Shown: positions 33,336-50,398 of the stretch, piece by piece
Position numbering within the stretch: the stretch's first letter is position 1
How the letters are laid out: each line of letters begins with the position of its first letter
Origin: the human T2T-CHM13v2.0 reference genome, Homo sapiens
Assembly (NCBI RefSeq): GCF_009914755.1
Contig: NC_060925.1
DNA length: 64,000 nucleotides
Reading direction: 5' to 3' (one strand)
The notes under the pieces: generated by a model
What the model was told of the DNA's origin: nothing
Databases searched by the model: none
Seen by the model: only the letters and a program-made list of their open reading frames with translations
Program-made: the position numbers and the translations under genes

Positions 33336-34390
33336 TCTAGGGCCCAGAGGCTCCCCACGCGGCCTTTCTCCATCTCTCCTCACCTCTCCCGGGATGTGGC
33401 CTCCGAGATCTCTTTCCCTCTGTGCTCCCTCCGGACCCCTAACCCAGCCAAAAGGTGGGCCAGGCAGGCCCCCGGGCCTCCGCACCGCTCGGCCATGGCG
33501 AGTGAAAGACCCGGGGCTCCGGCCGTCGGAGCACCTGACCGCCGGGGCTACCCGCATCCGCTGCATTTGCGGAGAAATGCCTCCTCCGGCCCGCCCCCCT
33601 AGCAAACAGCGGCCCCACCCGCAGCCCATGCGGGCGGTGACCCGATCCAGATGCTGCCCGTGCCCTGGGGCACTCTCCAGGACCCCCAACCTCATTGTTC
33701 TCCTCGGACCGCAGACCCCAGACGTTCGGCAAGAGCCCTTGCCCCCACCCCGGGGGCGTGGTTCTCCGCCCGGTCCGCGCTACATCTTTAAGCCCCTGGA
33801 GGCGCCAGGGCCCCCCGCAGCCCCAGGTGAGCTAGCCCGAGAGCAAGACCTGCATGAGGCCGGACAGGGAAAGTGGCCTGGGGCGAACAGAGGCGGGGAG
33901 GCGGGGCTGAGCGAGCGAGGGGGATCCCCCAGGAGCAGGAGGAGCTGGGCAAGGGGGGCGGTTGCGGGGAGGGGTGGATGGTTCGGAATGGGCGTGGTCT
34001 TGCCGAATGGGAGGGTCTAACGCGAGTGGTTGGCGTCCCGCGCGGGGCCCAAAGTGTGACACGGGTGGGCTTGGAACCGGGACCTTAGCTACTGGTGGGG
34101 CTGAAGCCCACCCTGCCATTGTTCTGCCACGGTCAGTGGGGCTTGCTCCTCCCTATGGGAAGCACTTACGGCCGGGAGCGGGAATCCCGTCACCACCGCG
34201 GTGGGGAAGCCGCACGGAAATCCACGGGGTGCGGACGGTGCCATCTCCTGGAAGTTGGCCAGAGAACCCCACTCTGTCCGCAAATCGCTCTTATTTAATA
34301 ACAACTATCATCGATTGTGATCCTAACCTGGGCCTCCTGCCTCCCAGGCAATACCCTTTTCCGCCTGGCGCGGCCTCTCTGACTCGAGTG
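33330..34390. promoter_or_regulatory. CpG island between the ZNF683 3' end and CRYBG2; candidate distal CRYBG2 promoter
   Basis: Dense CpG; GC boxes (GGCGGGG x2 at ~33892-33907). Confidence 0.8.
33384..33695 (-). CDS. CRYBG2: Candidate first coding exon of a long CRYBG2 isoform (MRLGVLES...GHIPGE) inside a CpG island
   Basis: ATG with A at -3, 104 open codons, donor GAG|GTGAGG in phase 0 matching the 28232 acceptor. Confidence 0.5.
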
Positions 34391-35096
34391 GGGATGGGGA
34401 GCACCTTGTACATTTCAGAGGATCCTCCGGGCCTACAGGGAGAAGGGCCATCAGGCCTCAGCTCCCCAGGGTCTCTGCCAGTTCTTCTCTGCCTGTAGCC
34501 CTTATCTGGCTGCAGCCTCCACGCCTTCCCTGAGCCTGGCACCCTGTTAGCCCAGAGTGTTGTGGTAACTAGACCCGGTTGACAGAGGACATCATGCTTC
34601 TGGGTCGTGAGTGGACCCTGATATCTCGAGTCTCCTTCTTCAATAGACCCACAATGAGGGGCACCCTCCCCCTCCACCTCGCAACGACCATGCAGGGAGT
34701 ACCGGCTGAGGTGCAAGTGGCCAATAGGAACGGTGAGACCCAGGCAGTGGGGGCAGCGGGACCCTCTGCACAGGTGTTGGGAACAGGACAATGTGCCCAG
34801 GCTGGACAGCACGGTCGGCACCCTGCAGCGCGCTGGAGGGCTGGACTGTCCGTCGGTGAATAGACGAGGAGAGCCTGGTCCTAGACGGGGAGTGGAACTC
34901 AAGCCTTGCTGAAGCAGATGGCTGCAGGCAAGCACCGCACACACAGGCAGCACAGGCTCTTCCTGGCTGAGTCCCCTGACCTGCTCCCGGGTGAAGTGTG
35001 AGGTCTGGCAAACACAGTGGCTTTCCCCCATTACCCCCACCCCACACCTAAACTGTTGAAGCTCAGGAAGCCTCAAAGCATGACAGAAGAAACATT

Positions 35097-35102
35097 TTTA
35101 AT
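35097..35102 (-). terminator. ATTAAA poly(A) signal overlapping the ZNF683 stop codon
   Basis: AAT TAA AAA TG followed by U/GU-rich TGTTTCTTCTGTC...CTTTG. Confidence 0.65.
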
Positions 35103-35469
35103 TGTTCTGGTCCTGCCCCATCACCAGGGGAGTCCCGGCACTGCTCAGGCTCACTGCTCTTGCTTTCCCCTGGGATGTCGAGGACACTTTGACCTCATCT
35201 ATGTCATAGCCCATGTGTTTCTCAGATGCCACCGCCATAAGATCTAGTGCCCCCTGGTGCCATTGGGCAAGGCAGGCCAGAGAGGCCAGGGGCAGCTGGG
35301 TGTGCACCAGGCCACAGGGCTGTGGGGCATGCAGCCGATGGTGCAGCTTCAGGTGGATGTGCTGGGTGAAGCGACTCCGGCAGACACTGCACTGGAAGGG
35401 CCGGGCCCCGGAGTGCAGGCGCAGGTGGGTCTTGAGGTTACTGGAGCTGCTGAAGCGCTTGTGGCACAC
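35098..35469 (-). CDS. ZNF683: ZNF683 last exon: rest of ZF3, ZF4 and C-terminus (...MGQDQNN*)
   Basis: gtcag|GTG TGC CAC; C2H2 fingers with an HSGARPF linker; TAA at 35098-35100. Confidence 0.97.
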
Positions 35470-35562
35470 CTGACGGGAACGAGCACTGGCATCAGCTTTG
35501 TCCTCTGGGCTGGCTCAGGCATTCTACTCCCTCTCCTCATCTTGGAAATACCCATGACCCAC

Positions 35563-35622
35563 CTCTCTTTCCCTCCAGGCCTGGAAGCTTTTCCAGTGAT
35601 TTCTTCCTGGAACCCACGGTAT
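35563..35622 (-). CDS. ZNF683: ZNF683 60-nt cassette exon IPWVPGRNHWKSFQAWRERE (gives the 524-aa isoform)
   Basis: gctag|ATA...GAG|GTGGGT, phase 0/0; peptide matches the long ZNF683 isoform as I recall it. Confidence 0.85.
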
Positions 35623-36472
35623 CTAGCACATTAGAACCAGGCCAACTTGGGTTAGTGTCCTTTACTCCATGTGTGACCTTGTAAAAGTAACTTCTCCTCT
35701 CTGAGCCTTCCTCTCCTCATTGGTAACATTGGTTATTAATACCTAGCTTCATAGATATGGTGGACTGAATGAGATAATCACATAGAACTCTTAAGTATGA
35801 AGCTGCAGCTTCAGTAGATTGTAATGAACATTTACAGGGGGCTGCCACATGCCTGCAGTTGGTTTCATCTAGTCTTCCCCAGGACCCTAGGGAAGCATGA
35901 CTAAGTATTAGTACAAGTCCTATATTATAGTAAGAAAGCAGAGTCTCAGAGGAGTGAAGCCACTAGCCAAAGGTCACACAGCAAGTTGAAGGCAGAGCTA
36001 GGATTTGAACACAGGTGGCCCGACTATGCAGCCCGGACTCATAATCATGGCACTGCTTTCATTTCTGCCCCTGTAAAATGGGAAAGAACCCCTGCCCTTC
36101 TGATTTCCCGAGGGATGTGGCCAGGCTCACAGAAGGAGGGAGCTGACATCAAGCTAATAGTTTTCCTACTTGGATACTCTGGGTACACTATAGCATTAAC
36201 TCCTCCAATAACTCAGGGAGGTAGATAATGGGTATACATACACTCTCCATGACCTCCAACTTCATTGTTCTCTCCCTCCTGCAGGCCTTTGGAGTGACCT
36301 TCAGTATTACCCATTCCAGGCTGAGAGGAGTCATTTTCAATTTTCACTCCCCCTTCCCATCTCCACTTGCTCAGGAGGACTGGGGAATGGAGGCTGCAGG
36401 TGCCAGCCCTCCAAGGGCCTAAAACTCCTCTCCAGCCTATAGGAGTACATAGTAGGGGGAGAAGGATCTCAC

Positions 36473-36601
36473 CGAGCACTTGTGGGGCCGCTCCCCAGTG
36501 TGCACCAGGTGGTGCTTCTGCAGGTGGGCAAGTTGAGTGAAGCTCTTCTGGCACAAGGCACACTGGAATGGACGCTCTCCACTGTGCACACGCAGGTGGA
36601 C
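36473..36601 (-). CDS. ZNF683: ZNF683 exon 5 ([14 protein letters not shown]...[10 protein letters not shown])
   Basis: ctcag|GTC...TCG|GTGAGA, 129 nt; PRDM1-like fingers. Confidence 0.97.
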
Positions 36602-36814
36602 CTGAGTCAGATGCGGGATAAATGCTGCCAACTGCCCAGCACCCCTAGCAGGGCCTGAGGTCCTCTCCAAATCTCTGCCCACTTCTCTCTCCCTCCCCGT
36701 CATCTCCCTCAGGGCCCATCATCCCCAGGATACTCTACTCTTTCTGCTGCCCTGTAGGGGAGATGGCAGTGGTCAGAAGGCCAGGGGTAAGAGGTACCCC
36801 AGGTATATTGTGGA

Positions 36815-37327
36815 ACACTGCTATTCAAAATGTGGTTCACAGACCAGCAGTGCTGGTATCACACTTTGGGAGCATGTTAGAAATGCAGGTTCTCAAGTCC
36901 GGCCCCAGACCTGCTGAATCAAAAACTCTGGGAGGGCTGGGCACACTCTCGTGGCTGTAATCCCAGCATTTTGGGAGGCCGAGGAGGGAGGATCAATGGA
37001 GCCCAGGAGTTCAATACCAGCCTGAGAAACACATTGGGACCCCGTATGCACAAAAAATTTGAAAGTTAACGAGGAGTGGTGGTGTTTACCCTTCGTCCCA
37101 GCTACCGGGGAGGATGAAGTGGGAGAATCCCTTAAGCCCAGGAGTTTGAGACCAGCGTGGGCGACAGAATGAGACTCCATATGGAAAAAAAAAAAAAAAA
37201 AAAAGATAACTCTGGGGCTGGGAGCTACTCTGGAGGCTGAGGTGGGAGGATCACAAAAACTCTAGGAATCTGCATGTTTACTAGCTCTCCAGGTGGTCTG
37301 AGGCTCATGAAAGTTTAAGAACTCCTG
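36815..37327. mobile_element. MER5A-like hAT DNA transposon relic interrupted by Alu sequence (36934-37255)
   Basis: gttagaaatgcag...cccagacctgctgaatcaaaaactctgg ... ggaatctgcatgtt...aaagtttaagaac. Confidence 0.7.
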
Positions 37328-37443
37328 CCCTGCAGGATCCAGCAGGGCTTCTCCCCATAACCACAATGTGCCTTCAACTTCAGAACTAGCCAGAGAGCGC
37401 ACAGTTTCCGCCCTTTGCTAACGCACTGAGATGCGCTCCCTGG

Positions 37444-37457
37444 GCGCCCCCTGCTGG
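37444..37457 (-). promoter_or_regulatory. Consensus CTCF site CCAGCAGGGGGCGC in ZNF683 intron 4, within a small CpG-retaining patch (37390-37500)
   Basis: Exact match to the CTCF core; local CpG preservation. Confidence 0.75.
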
Positions 37458-37978
37458 GCGATGCGGATGGTGAGGCCAATCGCATCGGCGGTCGCGCAGA
37501 TTTGTGGGATCCCACTTGAAAAAGGTTGGTCATCGGACTGTGGTCTAGACTCACCAAAATCTACCCATTCCCTCATCTGACTGCCCAAAAAAATAAATAA
37601 GAAGCTTAACTTGGAGTCCAGAAAGGATGGTTGTCCAGGTAAGGGCTTTCTTTGCCCAGAGCAAATGTTGAGAGACTAAACCTAACACTACCGTTAAATC
37701 GGGGTAATCTTAGGCAAACGCTGCCCATTAAAAGCCTCAGTCTCCCCATTTTAACCTAAATGAGACGATCTCATAGGCAGTCCTCTAGGGTGGCGAGGAC
37801 TTTGGTGGCCGTCTTATCCGATATCTCCACCCAAATGAACCATCCAAGGTCACTTGGCCCTAGAGGTTGCCCAGGAGTGCCTTCTAGCTTTGAGGTCCTT
37901 GCTTCTAGAAGCAGACTCGGGTGCATGGGGGGCCCTGAAGGATGTTGAGGGGAGAAGCAGAGCCCAGGAGGCAGATAC

Positions 37979-38673
37979 CTTGAGATTGGAGAGCTGCCCA
38001 AAGCTCTTGCCACATATGTTGCACTCGTACAGGATTTTGCCATTCTTCTTTTTCAGCGGGTAAGGCAAGGCTGCGGTGCCTGTCTGGGAACTCAATGGGA
38101 CCCGCTTTGCTGGAGATGCCATGCCACCACGCTCCAGGCCTGGGGAGTCGGTTGGGGCAGCTCCAGCACCTGGATTTCGGGCCTGGGAAGGCAGAGCTTG
38201 GCCAGAGGCTTGGAAGGCCCCTGGGTAGGGAAGCAGGGTCTCCCACCGAGCGCTGGGGTGCCCCAGCTCATTGACCATCATCAGCAGGCTAGGCATAGCC
38301 ATGGTGGGGTAGGAGGGGTCTTGGGGCAGCATGAGGAGGTGGGGACATTGGTCAGAAGGTAGGGCCCCATAGGTGAACAGGTGGGGTGGAGGCAGGAGAA
38401 GTGGGTATCCAGGGTAGAAGGCGTGGAGGAGAAATGGGAGCTCCTTGGAGATGGAGTTGACAGGGGGACAGGGGCAGAAAGCCAAGGGGCTGGGGCTCTT
38501 TCTGTTCTGCAGCGGTGGTGGGGAAGAGCTGTTATGAGAGGAGAAGGCTGGGCAGGGGGCCCCCTCGCCAGCTCTTTCTGGCTGTTTTCCCAGCTTGTCC
38601 TTGTTCTGTGGGTACTTGACTGTGAATTTCTTGTCATCGGTGGAGCTGGCCTGCAGCCCTGGTGGCTCGTGCT
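37979..38673 (-). CDS. ZNF683: ZNF683 exon 4: Pro-rich region and start of ZF1 (...[30 protein letters not shown])
   Basis: cttag|AG CAC...AAG|GTATCT, 695 nt, phase 1/0; motif nearly identical to Blimp-1 LPYPLKKQNGKIKYECNVC. Confidence 0.96.
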
Positions 38674-38969
38674 CTAAGCAGGAAAAGGAAGGCGGTCAGA
38701 TCCCCACAGTCTGGGGTGAAGTTCTGTCCGCCATCAAACCTGCCCTGCTCGGGGCTGAGAAAGACCTCCAGCCTGCGAGCCTGCTAGCATTTCTGTAGTG
38801 CTGAACAATTTCAGGGGGAGAAAGCAGTTCAAGGTCCCTATTAGACACCCAGGTTGAGAAGCCAAGTGGGCAGATGGATAAACTGGGTTGGAGTTTAAAG
38901 GAGAGGTCTGAACTGGAGACATAAATCCAGGTGCCATGGGCACAGATAAGATCACATAAGGGTGAGGCT

Positions 38970-39160
38970 AGATCTGCTATGTCCGAAATGGCAGCCACTG
39001 GATGCATGACTAGATTTACATTAATTACAATGATTCTAATAAAAAATGAAGTTCTCAGTTGCACCAGTCACATTTACAGTGCTCAGCAGGTATAGTATTG
39101 GACAGCACAGGTATAGAATGTTCCCATTATTGCAGGGAGTTCTACCAAACAGTGCTATTC
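38970..39160. mobile_element. MER3/MER33-like hAT relic
   Basis: atggcagccact...cacatttacagtgctca...tattggacagcacag. Confidence 0.55.
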
Positions 39161-39207
39161 TAGATAAAGAGTACTAAAATAAAAAACCTGTTAAAAAATA
39201 AACTGTC

Positions 39208-40795
<1,588 letters not shown>

Positions 40796-41039
40796 TCAGC
40801 TCCCACACACATGCCTGAGAAGCCAGTGCCCAGCTTCTCTGGCTTAGGTATCACCACTCGAAAGCCCCCTGCACCCTCAGGCCAGAACTCCAAGGCCAAA
40901 ATGTGGAAGTAAAGTGTGCCTAAGCTCTGTCTTCATCAGTGACACTGCGTCCTCTCCACCACCCATCCCCAAACCTAGCAGTGCCCCCCACCCTCCAGCC
41001 TCTGCCAGGCGCAGGTGCAGCCCGGTGCCCTGGGCTTAC

Positions 41040-41244
41040 TCATGCTCAAGGCGTCCTCTTGGAGGCCCTGCAGGTCTGTGCCCAGGGGTGCCGGCTGTGG
41101 GGTGCACAGGTTCAGGTCCAGGTCCTGTAGGCAGGCCAGCAGTGCAGACCTGCCCGGTGCCAGGGGCAAGGGACACAGCCAGCTGGCACAGGATGGGCCA
41201 TGAGCATCCACCATGTCTGGAAGTGGTCTGCAGGCTGAGAAGAC
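41040..41244 (-). CDS. ZNF683: ZNF683 exon 3 (VFSACRPLPDMVDAHG...EDALSM)
   Basis: ctccag|GTC...ATG A|GTAAGC, 205 nt, phase 0/1. Confidence 0.94.
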
Positions 41245-41904
41245 CTGGAGGGCAGGGGCAAGGGGCTTGGGGGCTGGTGACTGGGACTCCATGGGTCCCT
41301 TAGATGGCCCCTACCCCTATTTTGTTTTCCAAAGGGGAGAATAAGCTAAAACAGCCACCACACTCCATATCTGTCACTCAAATGGCATCTCTTCCCTCAT
41401 CCAAAGATCTCTTTCCCCCAGGATTTTCCCACCCACCACAAGATTGCCCTCCTCCTGTCCCCAGGGCCCTCTCTAGCCCTGTTCTCCCTCCCTGCCCCGA
41501 ACCCATGTACCTCTGACCACCCTGGTCCCCAGTGTATCTCAGACCATCACTGTAATTTGAATGGCACCAAGTTGAGCACAAAGAAAATCCCCATCAAAGA
41601 CTATAAACTCCACAAGATGGCCCTGAGCCCCTGCTCACTAAGGCCCAAGGCCATGGTCATAGCAGCCAAGCCTACTGCACGAGGCTTCCGCTTCTTATTC
41701 CCCACAGGAGAGTCTGGGCCCCTGAGGCATGGGGAGAGGGTGTCTGGCTCCTCAAAGAAACATCCCTATGATGTGCCTGGGATAGGGGGTGCTCAGACTG
41801 GGAAGGAGATCTAGGTCCCTTCAGACGTTCCCCTTTTTCCTCCTAATGTCACCTCCTACTATAAGCAGACTACCCACAAAGGTAAGGCTGGGGTTCTACC
41901 TTAC

Positions 41905-42018
41905 CTGGTCACCTCGGAAGAGCTGGAAGTCCAGGCTGGGGGACAGGGAGCCCCCTGTACCTCCCAGGGCCATGGGCCTATGACAACAACCTAATTGTGC
42001 AGCTGATTCTTCCTTCAT
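41905..42018 (-). CDS. ZNF683: ZNF683 exon 2 coding part (MKEESAAQLGCCHRPM...LFRGDQ); exon acceptor at 42032 or 42029 (NAGNAG)
   Basis: ATG at 42018, donor CAG|GTAAGG; the five constitutive coding exons total 504 codons. Confidence 0.93.
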
Positions 42019-42266
42019 ATCCCCATTACCTGCTGGGAAACAGGTGAGTTAGAGGTAAGCTGTGAAGGTCCTCCAAATAGGAGTCTGAGTTCTAGGACTG
42101 GCTCTCCCATTAACATGCTGCATGACCACAAGTTATTCATGTCCCTTCCTGGACTCAGTTTCCCTATCCGCAAAATGGGAAGGTTGGTCTAGTTGATGCG
42201 TAAGGATTCTCTCAATGTTGACATTTAGAAGCCAGTGATGCTCTCCTGGTGGGTGTGGGAAGATTA

Positions 42267-45386
<3,120 letters not shown>

Positions 45387-45475
45387 TTAATAAATAAGGA
45401 AAAGACATGTCTAGATACAAAAAGGGAGACCTCATAGGCCAGAAAGTGGCTTTTTAGCCTGAGCAATGTCATTAT

Positions 45476-48196
<2,721 letters not shown>

Positions 48197-48524
48197 GGAG
48201 CTGACTCCAGGTGCAAGGGGCACATTCGGGAGGCCTCTGAAGAGGAGGTGCCTCCACATTAGGGGACAAGAGCTGGAGGGGCTGGGTCCTTGGGCTCCCG
48301 GTGCTCACTGCACACTTTCTTCTTCCTTTCGTTAGTTGCAAAATAATACATACTAGTGGTAAACATTTCAAACAACAGAAAATGTAAAAACGAAAAATGG
48401 AAGCTCCTCCTCCTTCGCAATTTCCCAGTGGTCAATGTGAATTGTTTAGTGTTTACCCTTCCAGACATTTTTCTATGAACCAACAAACAGGTAAATTGAT
48501 TTTTTTAATTGCTTTTTTTTTTCC

Positions 48525-49252
48525 TAAGGAATGAAGTGACTTATTGAAAATGAAAGTACACTCTGCAGTGTGGGAGCAGGCCTGAGCATAGGGGCTCAAA
48601 GGCCCCATTACAGAGTTTTTGAGAGTTTAAATACCTTCTGCTTGTGGTACGCCCTATGTAAATGAAGAGAATGAAGTAAAGTTACAATGTCATGTACTCA
48701 GGGAGAAGCTATTTCCTGTCAGAGCTGAAGTGTGAATTGGCCTTATGTTTCCTGCCTCCAGCCCCTATTTTCCTGCCTCATCTCCCCGCTAAGAGATGTG
48801 ATTGTGGTCCCCGTAAATCTTCACGGGAGGCAGAGGGACCGATGGTCTTTTTCCTGCGACTGCTTCATGCTGGCATGGGGCGTAGTCCCTACTTATTGGG
48901 GATCATGGAACCCTCACCTTGTTCTGTCTAGTGGAGGCAGGGTAGCTTCTTGATGGCCAGGGGTGGTGTCTTCACCTGGACTGGCTGGAGCCTTTGTTGC
49001 ATGATCATCTGAAGCTTGATGGCCTCCTTTTGCTGGTATGCCAGGTTTCTGGGCTCTCTTTCCCTGAGCGGCCCTTCCTCCGGGCTGGCTGGCCAAAATA
49101 TGTCACTGGTGGGGGGTGTCCAGGTTCTTGGCATCTTGAACAAAGAATTGGACAAAAAGCAGAAACAAAGCAACGAAGAAATGAAGGGATTTATTGAAAA
49201 TAAAGTACACTCCACAGTGTTGGAGTGGGCCTGAGCATAGGGGCTGAAAGGC
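48525..49252 (-). mobile_element. Internally deleted ERV1/MER4-group provirus (MER61-like): partial 5' LTR 49101-49252, PBS 49078-49095, ~320-bp internal remnant, PPT, partial 3' LTR 48525-48780
   Basis: Two LTR copies share attgaaaa..aagtacactc..gcctgagcataggggct; LTR termini TGAGGCAGG and GTGACA; tRNA-Arg-like PBS. Family name from recall. Confidence 0.75.
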
Positions 49253-49307
49253 TAAATTGTGTTTTATACAAACATGGGAATATATTGATGCACATTGCTC
49301 TTCCTGG

Positions 49308-49338
<31 letters not shown>

Positions 49339-49399
49339 GAGACAGAATCTGACTCTGCCTCCCAGGTTGGAGTACAGTGGTGTGATCTTGGCTCACTAG

Positions 49400-49657
<258 letters not shown>

Positions 49658-50398
49658 TGAACATACCTATCTGCCTCCTGCTTTTTCCTGACTATATAAT
49701 GTTCCATTGCAGGGTTGTGCTTAATATGTAGCCTTCCCCTGTTGGTGGACATACGGGTGGGATCCAATTTTCCCCTTTCTACACAAGGCTGGAAAAGACC
49801 TCCAGACAGAGTCAGTATGCGGAATGGTTAAGAATACGAGCTCTGCTGGATTTAATCCCAACTGGGTAAACTTATGGCAAATCACTTAACCTCTCTGTGC
49901 ATCTTTCCTCATCTGTCAAATGGAGATAATAATAGCACTTGCCTCATAGAATTATTTCCAGCTTTCCTCAAGATAATCCATGTAAAGCCCTTAGGATGGT
50001 GCCTGGCCCAAAGCAAGCACTTGACCAATGTGGATGACTATATTGTACATTACCCTTTACCTAGTTAGGCAAGCATCTGCAAGTCAGCTTCTTAAAAGTG
50101 TTAAAATTTTGATGGTTATTCCTGACCCATTTTGGAAGATCGAAATTTGGGCAGCACAATTGGAGAGATTAACTACATTTAGTTTTCTTGCTTTATTTAT
50201 TGACCCTTCCCTGGTTGGGGATCATTGCTCTCATTCAATGCAGTCTTCTCCTACCCCATCCACACACCACAATAATAATAGCTCTTGGCATGGGAGCCCT
50301 CATTATATGCCAGGAACCATGCAAAGCCATTCCACACGCTTTGTCTCACTGGATCAGCAGAGTGACTCTGGGAGATGAATGCCATTATTCCCATTTTA

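What the first reader, a model, noticed from the sequence alone, without database searches (positions are those of the whole stretch)
41040..42029. Fossil PR/SET domain in ZNF683 exons 2-3
Hobit is normally described as a Blimp-1 homolog lacking the PR domain. Seen: exon 3 reads VFSACRPLPDMVDAHGPSCASWLCPLPLAPGRSALLACLQDLDLNLCTPQPAPLGTDL. By eye this aligns with PRDM1 (recalled) [59 protein letters not shown] (VFS/IYS, VDA/IDG, SWL/NWM, LLAC/LAAC, TPQPAP/TIKPIP, DL/EL), starting at the same phase-0 exon boundary. Exon 2 read from the 42029 acceptor in a different frame from today's CDS gives VMGI*RKNQLHN*VVVIGPWPWEV, versus PRDM1 [23 protein letters not shown]. Inference: the N-terminal half of the PR domain was pseudogenised and re-used in a new frame, while the C-terminal half persists in frame, resembling the PR-truncated PRDM1-beta.
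Basis: partly seen in the sequence, partly recalled or inferred. Interest (0 to 1): 0.72.

Follow-up and report, generated by a model that had tools for sequence, protein, structure and literature searches.

The report
Hobit keeps half a PR domain
Exon 3 of human ZNF683 (Hobit) is a worn-down but still in-frame leftover of the second half of the PR/SET domain of its sister gene PRDM1 (Blimp-1), whereas the claimed frame-shifted first half in exon 2 cannot be shown.

Summary
The exon 3 claim holds. ZNF683 exon 3 and the PRDM1 exon for the C-terminal half of the PR domain share boundaries: phase 0 start, phase 1 end, lengths differing by 16 codons. The three downstream junctions also coincide. 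The human exon 3 peptide aligns from its first residue with the PR C-half of two unnamed PR-bearing proteins of the ZNF683 clade. BLASTP gives E 3e-5 and 8e-6; Smith-Waterman gives 66 and 63 against about 24±4, with 0 of 2000 shuffles reaching it. Non-primate placental Hobit is closer to PRDM1 than human Hobit is. The stretch is no longer a PR domain. Pfam finds nothing, the ELLVWY block is deleted, and AlphaFold2 gives pLDDT below 50. The exon 2 claim is not supported: no frame resembles the PR N-half beyond chance. Only a post hoc 27-nt similarity at its 5' end, including the ATG, hints at positional homology. An ancestral PR domain is already in print (PMC7662092); the mapped relic is a modest new detail.

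The parts
41040..41244 (-). ZNF683 exon 3 (205 nt, 68 codons plus 1 base; phase 0 start, phase 1 end). It is an in-frame degenerate relic of the C-terminal half of the PR/SET domain, counterpart of PRDM1 exon C (253 nt).
   Evidence: Translation. Phases. Smith-Waterman and BLASTP against PRDM1 and PR-bearing ZNF683-clade proteins. hhalign. tblastn over the 16-kb locus has its only two HSPs with E<0.01 here.
41905..42032 (-). ZNF683 exon 2 (128 nt, or 125 nt from the 42029 acceptor). The start codon is at 42018-42016 and the exon ends in phase 0. It is a possible positional counterpart of PRDM1 PR exon B (120 nt, phase 0/0), but homology is not shown.
   Evidence: Exon order, 3' phase and length. 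No protein similarity in any frame.
42003..42029 (-). The first 27 nt of exon 2 counted from the 42029 acceptor, including the ATG. They show nucleotide similarity to the first 27 nt of PRDM1 exon B, with ATG aligned to the Met codon of VIGV-M-SKEY.
   Evidence: The global score is 6. It is reached by 195 of 20000 shuffles of the 27-mer, by at least 27 of 127946 window 27-mers, and by 1 of 265 acceptor-like sites. The test was chosen after the similarity was seen.
37979..38673 (-). ZNF683 exon 4 (phase 1 start, ends after ..GQLSNLK in phase 0). It is colinear with the large PRDM1 exon D.
   Evidence: The colinear BLASTP HSP with P0279 runs through this region.
36473..36601 (-). ZNF683 exon 5 (129 nt, VHLRVH..HKCS). 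It has the same length and boundaries as PRDM1 exon E.
35098..35469 (-). Coding part of ZNF683 exon 6 (starts VCHKRF..). It has the same 5' boundary as PRDM1 exon F.

Best explanation
ZNF683 and PRDM1 are sister genes that came from one PR-domain-plus-zinc-finger ancestor, and they keep the same exon layout. In the lineage leading to placental mammals the ZNF683 PR domain decayed unevenly.

The exon for its C-terminal half survives as exon 3, still in frame and with the ancestral phase-0 and phase-1 boundaries. Relative to PR-bearing relatives it has lost 2 residues internally and about 15-16 residues at its end, including the ELLVWY block. It has diverged so far that no PR/SET profile detects it and no fold is predicted.

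The N-terminal half and the upstream acidic region are no longer recognisable. Translation now starts at an ATG in exon 2. Hobit is therefore built like the PR-truncated PRDM1-beta: second half of the PR domain, linker, zinc fingers.

Shown here: homology of exon 3 with the PR C-half, exon colinearity, and loss of the domain's defining features. Inferred: that the relic no longer folds as a PR domain; that exon 2 descends from PR exon B; and that the relic's above-average conservation among placentals reflects a new role, such as a docking or linker segment.
For: 1. Exon structure. PRDM1 exon B is 120 nt (phase 0/0). Exon C is 253 nt (phase 0 to 1). Exon D ends after GQLSNLK. Exon E is 129 nt. 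Exon F starts VCHKRF. ZNF683 exons 3 to 6 have the same phases and junction residues, and exon 3 is shorter by 48 nt, which is 16 codons.

2. Human exon 3 peptide against PR-bearing ZNF683-clade proteins. BLASTP gives E 3e-5 for P0218 (exon 3 residues 1-58 to P0218 98-157) and E 8e-6 for P0279. Smith-Waterman gives 66 and 63 against about 24±4, reached by 0 of 2000 shuffles.

3. P0279 against Galeopterus ZNF683. One colinear HSP runs from P0279 212-704 to ZNF683 50-428 with E 9e-66, from the PR C-half into the fingers.

4. Pfam. P0218 carries a full PF21549 match (130.5 bits, profile positions 9-122 of 123). P0279 carries the C-half only (83.1 bits, positions 42-119).

5. Tree. A careful tree of the finger block (35 rows) has a split with support 99/96. 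It puts P0218, P0279, P0194, P0199, P0200, fish ZNF683-type proteins and placental ZNF683 apart from PRDM1 and invertebrate Blimp-1.

6. PRDM1 against placental exon 3. BLASTP finds an extra HSP of 30 bits, E 3e-4. Smith-Waterman scores of non-primates are 40-66 against about 21±3.7, and controls are at chance.

7. hhalign of the exon 3 profile against PR C-half profiles gives P 0.0018, 0.0011 and 0.00034, in register. Controls give 0.15-0.97.

8. tblastn of five PR-bearing N-termini against window 34000-50000 gives 24 HSPs at E<=2. The only two below 0.01 both lie on exon 3.

9. Literature. PMC7662092 (passages read) states that ZNF683 and PRDM1 share an ancestor, that fish orthologues keep the SET domain, and that human and mouse ZNF683 lost it.
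Against: No PR/SET profile sees the relic. Pfam hmmscan of exon 3 alone finds 0 families at E<=10. Three full-length placental proteins have no PF21549 or PF00856 match at E<=1. The whole-genome PF21549 scan gives 38 matches at E<=10, none in ZNF683. phmmer of exon 3 against the PDB finds 0 at E<=10.

An HMM of placental exon 3 ranks the PRDM1 exon C frame only second of 2419 frames (E 0.042), behind a decoy. DNA-level local alignments of exon 3 with exon C and of exon 2 with exon B are at chance. Two primates score at chance against PRDM1: P0004 scores 25 (258 of 2000 shuffles) and P0008 scores 21 (919 of 2000).

The two bridging proteins are unnamed representatives, so their species and gene-model quality are unknown. 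The finger-only tree does not resolve their position inside the ZNF683 side. The case for constraint rests on amino-acid identity alone: 0.751 for exon 3 against 0.672 and 0.660 for its neighbours. No dN/dS could be computed.
Confidence: 0.88

Rival explanations
1. Exon 2 is the N-terminal half of the PR domain, pseudogenised by frameshift and stops and now translated in a different frame from the ancestral one.
For: Exon 2 sits where PR exon B would be: next upstream of the relic, phase-0 3' end, 125/128 nt against 120 nt.
Against: The anchored 23-residue pairing is reached by 793 of 10000 shuffles. In the 27-nt alignment the ZNF683 ATG pairs with the exon B Met codon. From there, both genes run in frame to a phase-0 exon end (38 against 36 codons). 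Today's frame would then be the old frame downstream of a 1-nt change, not a new one.
Confidence: 0.1
2. Exon 2 is unrelated to PR exon B. It is a new leader exon, or a descendant of a beta-type alternative first exon lying close upstream of exon C. Placental Hobit would then be a fixed beta-form of the ancestral gene.
For: No protein similarity of exon 2 to any PR N-half, in any frame, was found. Tests covered 15 orthologues in the coding frame against PRDM1 exon B, 6 of them against the P0218 and P0279 N-termini, and the human exon in three frames. Exon 2 lies only 660 nt upstream of exon 3. In PRDM1, exon B lies about 3.5 kb upstream of exon C, while the beta first exon (ATGGAAAAG|gt, L001:1290-1298) lies 205 nt upstream. 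Beta-type forms exist in both sister genes: MEK plus exon C in PRDM1, and MAE plus exon C in 18 of 50 fish ZNF683-type hits that carry the motif.
Against: Exon 2 is an internal exon with its own acceptor, spliced to an upstream non-coding exon, not a first exon (and the annotation supplied with the finding). The 27-nt similarity to the start of exon B argues the other way. A 3-codon leader gives nothing to compare.
Confidence: 0.4
3. The exon 3 resemblance is chance or a compositional artefact, and ZNF683 lost the whole PR domain.
For: No profile method detects it. DNA similarity is absent. Two primate sequences score at chance against PRDM1.
Against: Composition-preserving shuffles never reach the observed scores against P0218 and P0279 (0 of 2000). 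The alignment is colinear with the rest of the protein. It starts exactly at the shared exon boundary. Cross-exon controls are at chance.
Confidence: 0.03

Closest known systems
PR domain of PRDM1/Blimp-1 (Pfam PF21549 PRDM2_PR; solved structures 3DAL, 9Q1G, 9Q33)
   Same: ZNF683 exon 3 is homologous to the exon that encodes the second half of this domain. The PRDM1 exon C translation matches chain residues 111-194 of 3DAL and 103-186 of 9Q1G. The two exons share phases and are colinear in sequence. Retained positions include the W of ..SNWM.., the ..L(L/V)AC.. block and ..Y..T(L/I).P.P...
   Different: No profile match. The N-terminal half is undetectable. Two residues are deleted after the W block, and about 15-16 residues including ELLVWY are deleted at the end. 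The region is predicted without structure.
PRDM1-beta (Blimp-1 beta), the PR-truncated isoform made from an internal promoter
   Same: PRDM1-beta keeps exactly the exon C part of the PR domain: P0021 and P0042 start MEK and then IYSRGELHH... Hobit keeps the counterpart of that exon and nothing recognisable of the first half. [quoted passage not shown]
   Different: In PRDM1-beta the retained half is intact and sits beside a 3-residue leader. In Hobit it is degenerate and shortened, it follows a 38-residue exon 2 peptide, and it is the main form rather than an alternative one.
Fish prdm1b / ZNF683-type genes and the unnamed representatives P0218 and P0279
   Same: They fall on the ZNF683 side of the finger-block tree and share protein colinearity with placental Hobit. 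They show what Hobit's exon 3 looked like before it decayed.
   Different: They still score as PR/SET in Pfam, at 83-149 bits. Placental Hobit does not.

Membership tests
PR/SET domain (Pfam PF21549 / PF00856) | Profile match at or above the curated cut-off | tested here: not met
   Exon 3 and exon 2 peptides: 0 families at E<=10. Placental ZNF683 P0004, P0009 and P0015: no PF21549 or PF00856 at E<=1. Genome-wide PF21549 scan: 38 matches at E<=10, none in the window.
PR/SET domain (Pfam PF21549 / PF00856) | Both halves of the domain of about 120 residues present | tested here: not met
   Only the C-half is traceable. Exon 2 is at chance against the N-half in all frames.
PR/SET domain (Pfam PF21549 / PF00856) | Conserved C-terminal ELLVWY-type block | tested here: not met
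   There is a 15-residue gap in placental ZNF683 opposite ELLVWYSQEDFTQ.. of P0279. Exon 3 is 16 codons shorter than PRDM1 exon C.
PR/SET domain (Pfam PF21549 / PF00856) | SET-like fold | tested here: inconclusive
   AlphaFold2 on gibbon ZNF683 with a 15-sequence alignment gives pLDDT below 50 for residues 1-309. The alignment is shallow, so absence of a fold is not proven.
PR/SET domain (Pfam PF21549 / PF00856) | Descent from a PR-domain exon (homology, not function) | tested here: met
   Same exon phases. BLASTP E 3e-5 and 8e-6 to PF21549-positive relatives. A colinear HSP.
PRDM1/ZNF683 sister-gene pair | Colinear exon-intron structure and a PRDM1-type five-finger block | tested here: met
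   Four shared junctions with the same phases. Finger block 52% identical to PRDM1 over 210 residues. Tree split with support 99/96.
PRDM1-beta-type architecture | Protein begins with a short leader joined directly to the exon C part of the PR domain | tested here: inconclusive
   Hobit has the exon C counterpart and no recognisable N-half, but it has a 38-residue exon 2 peptide instead of the 3-residue MEK or MAE leader.

The most novel reading that the evidence does not exclude
The relic is not a neutral fossil. It is a retained working piece: the most conserved non-finger segment of placental Hobit, with an invariant S-C-A-x-W-L-C-P block, kept as a docking or linker element. The 'second half only' architecture would then be ancient, because beta-type forms (MEK or MAE leader joined to exon C) exist in both sister genes. 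On this reading placental Hobit is a constitutive beta-form, whose differences from Blimp-1 in repression trace to this half-domain.
Probability: 0.3. Interest if true: 0.55.

Novelty: new member of a known kind. Interest (0 to 1): 0.38.

Why it matters
Hobit and Blimp-1 bind overlapping sites but are not interchangeable. The papers read here describe Hobit as lacking the PR/SET domain (PMC7662092). Showing that residues 39-106 are a conserved leftover of the same half-domain that PRDM1-beta keeps gives a defined segment to delete, swap or use as bait when asking why the two factors differ. It also dates the decay of the domain to the lineage leading to placentals. More generally, it is a worked case where exon phases and intermediate orthologues recover a homology that Pfam, phmmer and AlphaFold2 all miss. 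The broader fact, that the ancestor had a PR domain, is already published, so the advance is modest.

Tried and rejected
1. Direct profile and sequence searches with exon 3 found nothing: Pfam, PDB phmmer, genome-wide PF21549.

2. An HMM of placental exon 3 searched against 2419 open frames from 30 PRDM loci ranked PRDM1 exon C second (E 0.042), behind a decoy (E 0.014). This was too weak to use alone.

3. DNA-level local alignment of exon 2 with exon B and of exon 3 with exon C was at chance.

4. A word-index search with PRDM1 exon C returned only PRDM1 orthologues among the 120 rows listed, of 552 hits. No ZNF683-type protein was seen there.

5. A search with P0186 showed it to be a teleost protein and listed mostly teleost ZNF683-type proteins plus some poly-zinc-finger proteins. 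No marsupial, monotreme or sauropsid ZNF683 was obtained.

6. The protein Atlas gave only 'Chordata' for the neighbours of P0279.

7. I looked for fossils of PRDM1 exons A and B in window 34000-50000 by tblastn. Nothing below E 0.13 lies outside exon 3 (the first run was cut in display).

8. An eye-caught resemblance between P0279 residues about 150-170 and exon 2 was tested and is at chance.

9. The first tree (69 rows) did not finish its careful search and only a quick tree was shown. It was replaced by a 35-row careful tree.

11. No fold search was run, because the model of the region has pLDDT below 50.

Full report
**What is there**

The window is human chr1 with ZNF683 (Hobit) on the minus strand.
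- The coding part of exon 2 (42018..41905) gives 38 residues starting MKEES.

A scan of the window's own genome with Pfam PF21549 found the PRDM1 PR exons on contig C6. Their translations contain both strings letter for letter.

**Exon structure**

Reading the PRDM1 loci gives these exons:
- Exon A ends ..NSEE|gt in phase 0.
- Exon B ([9 protein letters not shown]..YFWR) is 120 nt, phase 0/0.
- Exon C (IYSRGEL..MMNL plus one base) is 253 nt, phase 0 to phase 1.
- Exon D ends after ..GQLSNLK.
- Exon E is 129 nt (VHLRVH..HECQ).
- Exon F starts VCHKRF.

ZNF683 compares as follows:
- Exon 3 is phase 0 to phase 1.
- Exon 4 starts in phase 1 and ends after ..SNLK.
- Exon 5 is 129 nt.
- Exon 6 starts VCHKRF.

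The five coding exons of ZNF683 are therefore colinear with PRDM1 exons B to F. Exon 3 differs from exon C by 48 nt, which is exactly 16 codons.

**Direct tests of exon 3**

Direct tests with human exon 3 alone mostly fail:
- Pfam hmmscan: 0 families at E<=10.
- phmmer against all PDB chains, which include the PRDM1 PR domain (3DAL, 9Q1G): 0 at E<=10.
- The genome-wide PF21549 scan: 38 matches at E<=10, none in ZNF683.
- DNA against DNA: at chance.

The one pre-defined pairwise comparison is above chance. Smith-Waterman of exon 3 against exon C scores 39 against 20.8±3.6, reached by 7 of 5000 composition-preserving shuffles.

**Orthologues strengthen the signal**

A database search with exon 3 returned 17 proteins, 68-96% identical to exon 3. 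Sixteen are named ZNF683 of placental mammals and one is unnamed. I used 15 of them, dropping a duplicate isoform (P0007) and an unnamed 135-residue intron read-through (P0012).

Their exon 3 parts against PRDM1 exon C:
- The 11 non-primates score 40-66 against about 21±3.7. For 10 of the 15 orthologues, 0 of 2000 shuffles reach the score.
- The primates score 21-41, and two of them (P0004, P0008) are at chance.
- Cross-exon controls (exon 3 against B, exon 2 against C) are at chance.

So the older-looking placental sequence (..LLACPQGLDLYLCTLQPAPLGT..) is closer to PRDM1 (..[22 protein letters not shown]..) than the human one. That is the direction expected for true homology.

BLASTP of PRDM1 (P0024) against Galeopterus ZNF683 (P0009) reports this stretch as a separate HSP of 30 bits, E 3e-4.

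**Bridging sequences**

An exhaustive HMMER search of cluster representatives with PRDM1 exon C gave 1667 hits at E<=0.001, of which 150 were listed. A careful maximum-likelihood tree of the finger block was built from 35 rows I picked to represent all groups. It has a branch with support 99/96.
- On one side are placental ZNF683, fish proteins that UniRef names ZNF683, and the unnamed representatives P0194, P0199, P0200, P0218 and P0279.
- On the other side are PRDM1 and invertebrate Blimp-1.
- The order inside the ZNF683 side is unresolved.

Pfam shows a full PR domain in P0218 (130.5 bits) and P0200 (149.1 bits). It shows only the C-half in P0279 (83.1 bits), P0194 and P0186.

The human exon 3 peptide against these proteins:
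- P0218: BLASTP E 3e-5, from exon 3 residue 1 to P0218 residue 98, the first residue of its exon-C-equivalent.
- P0279: BLASTP E 8e-6.
- Smith-Waterman: 66 and 63 against about 24±4, reached by 0 of 2000 shuffles.
- Against PRDM1 and the fish forms it scores only 29-39.

P0279 aligns with Galeopterus ZNF683 in one colinear HSP, 212-704 against 50-428, E 9e-66. It runs from the PR C-half through the middle region into the fingers, with a 15-residue gap in ZNF683 opposite ELLVWYSQEDFTQ...

Profile-profile comparison (hhalign) of placental exon 3 against PR C-half alignments gives P 0.0018, 0.0011 and 0.00034, in register. Four controls give 0.15-0.53.

Homology of exon 3 with the PR C-half is therefore established by transitivity, colinearity and exon phase.

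**It is no longer a PR domain**

- There is no profile match.
- Two residues are lost after the W block, and the ELLVWY block is lost.
- No N-terminal half can be traced.
- AlphaFold2 on gibbon ZNF683 (96% identical to human in exon 3) with a 15-sequence alignment gives pLDDT below 50 for residues 1-309. The fingers reach 70-83. The alignment is shallow, so this is weak evidence of disorder.

Among the 15 placentals, exon 3 is the best conserved part outside the fingers:
- Mean pairwise identity is 0.751, against 0.672 for exon 2 and 0.660 for the non-finger part of exon 4.
- Fifteen columns are invariant, including S56 C57 A58 W60 L61 C62 P63.

This hints at constraint. It is amino-acid identity only.

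**Exon 2**

The other two frames are no better, and exon 2 of all 15 orthologues in the coding frame is at chance. Further tests agree:
- The anchored 23-residue pairing is reached by 793 of 10000 shuffles.
- Exon 2 against the N-termini of P0218 and P0279 is at chance.
- hhalign gives P 0.33-0.97.
- tblastn of five PR-bearing N-termini over window 34000-50000 gives 24 HSPs at E<=2. Only the two on exon 3 are below 0.01, and nothing falls on exon 2.

One thing I noticed and then tested, so it is post hoc. The first 27 nt from the 42029 acceptor resemble the first 27 nt of exon B, with the ZNF683 ATG opposite the Met codon of VIGV-M-SKEY. The global score is 6. It is reached by:
- 195 of 20000 shuffles of the 27-mer;
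- at least 27 of 127946 window 27-mers;
- 1 of 265 acceptor-like sites.

If this is real, exon 2 is the positional descendant of exon B. Today's frame from the ATG to the phase-0 exon end (38 codons against 36) would then be the old frame, not a new one.

The alternative is that exon 2 is a new or beta-type leader. This is favoured by spacing. Exon 2 lies 660 nt from exon 3. PRDM1 exon B lies about 3.5 kb from exon C, while the beta first exon lies 205 nt away. I cannot decide between the two with the sequences available.

**PRDM1-beta**

Proteins P0021 (human isoform X6) and P0042 begin MEK and continue with exon C. Their leader exon ATGGAAAAG|gt is at L001:1290-1298.

Of the fish ZNF683-type hits that carry the motif, 18 of 50 begin MAE and continue with exon C. 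Beta-type forms thus occur in both sister genes.

**Literature**

Four full-text searches and passages from seven papers were read: PMC7662092, PMC6446816, PMC8829541, PMC12802269, PMC11318973, PMC7820527 and PMC5430038.

Only PMC7662092 deals with the question. [quoted passage not shown] I found no description of a residual half-domain in exon 3. Subscription papers, such as the original Hobit descriptions, are outside the library, and no supplements were opened.

**Verdict**

The exon 3 claim is right and now rests on solid evidence. The exon 2 claim is unsupported in the form given. The finding refines a published picture rather than overturning it.

Noticed in passing
L001:1290-1298 (human PRDM1, 205 nt upstream of PR exon C): The PRDM1-beta leader exon ATGGAAAAG|gt (MEK) lies here. 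Fish ZNF683-type 'isoform X2' proteins start MAE and continue with exon C, in 18 of the 50 hits that carry the motif. A beta-type internal start may predate the PRDM1/ZNF683 duplication.
   Followed up: partly
P0241 and P0279 (unnamed ZNF683-clade representatives): Both models lack a recognisable PR exon B but keep exon C. P0241 joins an exon-A-like stretch directly to exon C. P0279 has unrelated sequence upstream. Either the N-half was lost more than once in this clade, or the gene models are faulty.
   Followed up: no
window 46200-46253 (-) and 48025-48078 (+): Two near-identical stretches in opposite orientation, one abutting ZNF683 exon 1, give weak tblastn hits (E 1.7 and 0.72) to PRDM1 residues 57-74 of exon A. 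Being duplicated and inverted, they look like a repeat rather than an exon A fossil.
   Followed up: no
window 41245-41310 (-), intron 2 just upstream of exon 3: The tblastn alignment of P0218 runs through the exon 3 acceptor into the intron in the same frame (GPSKGPMESQSPAPKPLAPALQ opposite the end of exon B). Few matches; probably a chance extension.
   Followed up: no
window 1-33894 (CRYBG2) next to ZNF683: CRYBG2 lies beside ZNF683. PMC7662092 states that znf683 and its neighbour aim1l arose by duplication of the prdm1-aim1 region. The window shows this paired arrangement.
   Followed up: no
P0012 (135 aa, unnamed record): A predicted protein that reads straight through an exon-3-like stretch and its flanking introns in another mammal. 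It is an artefact of gene prediction and was left out of all counts.
   Followed up: no
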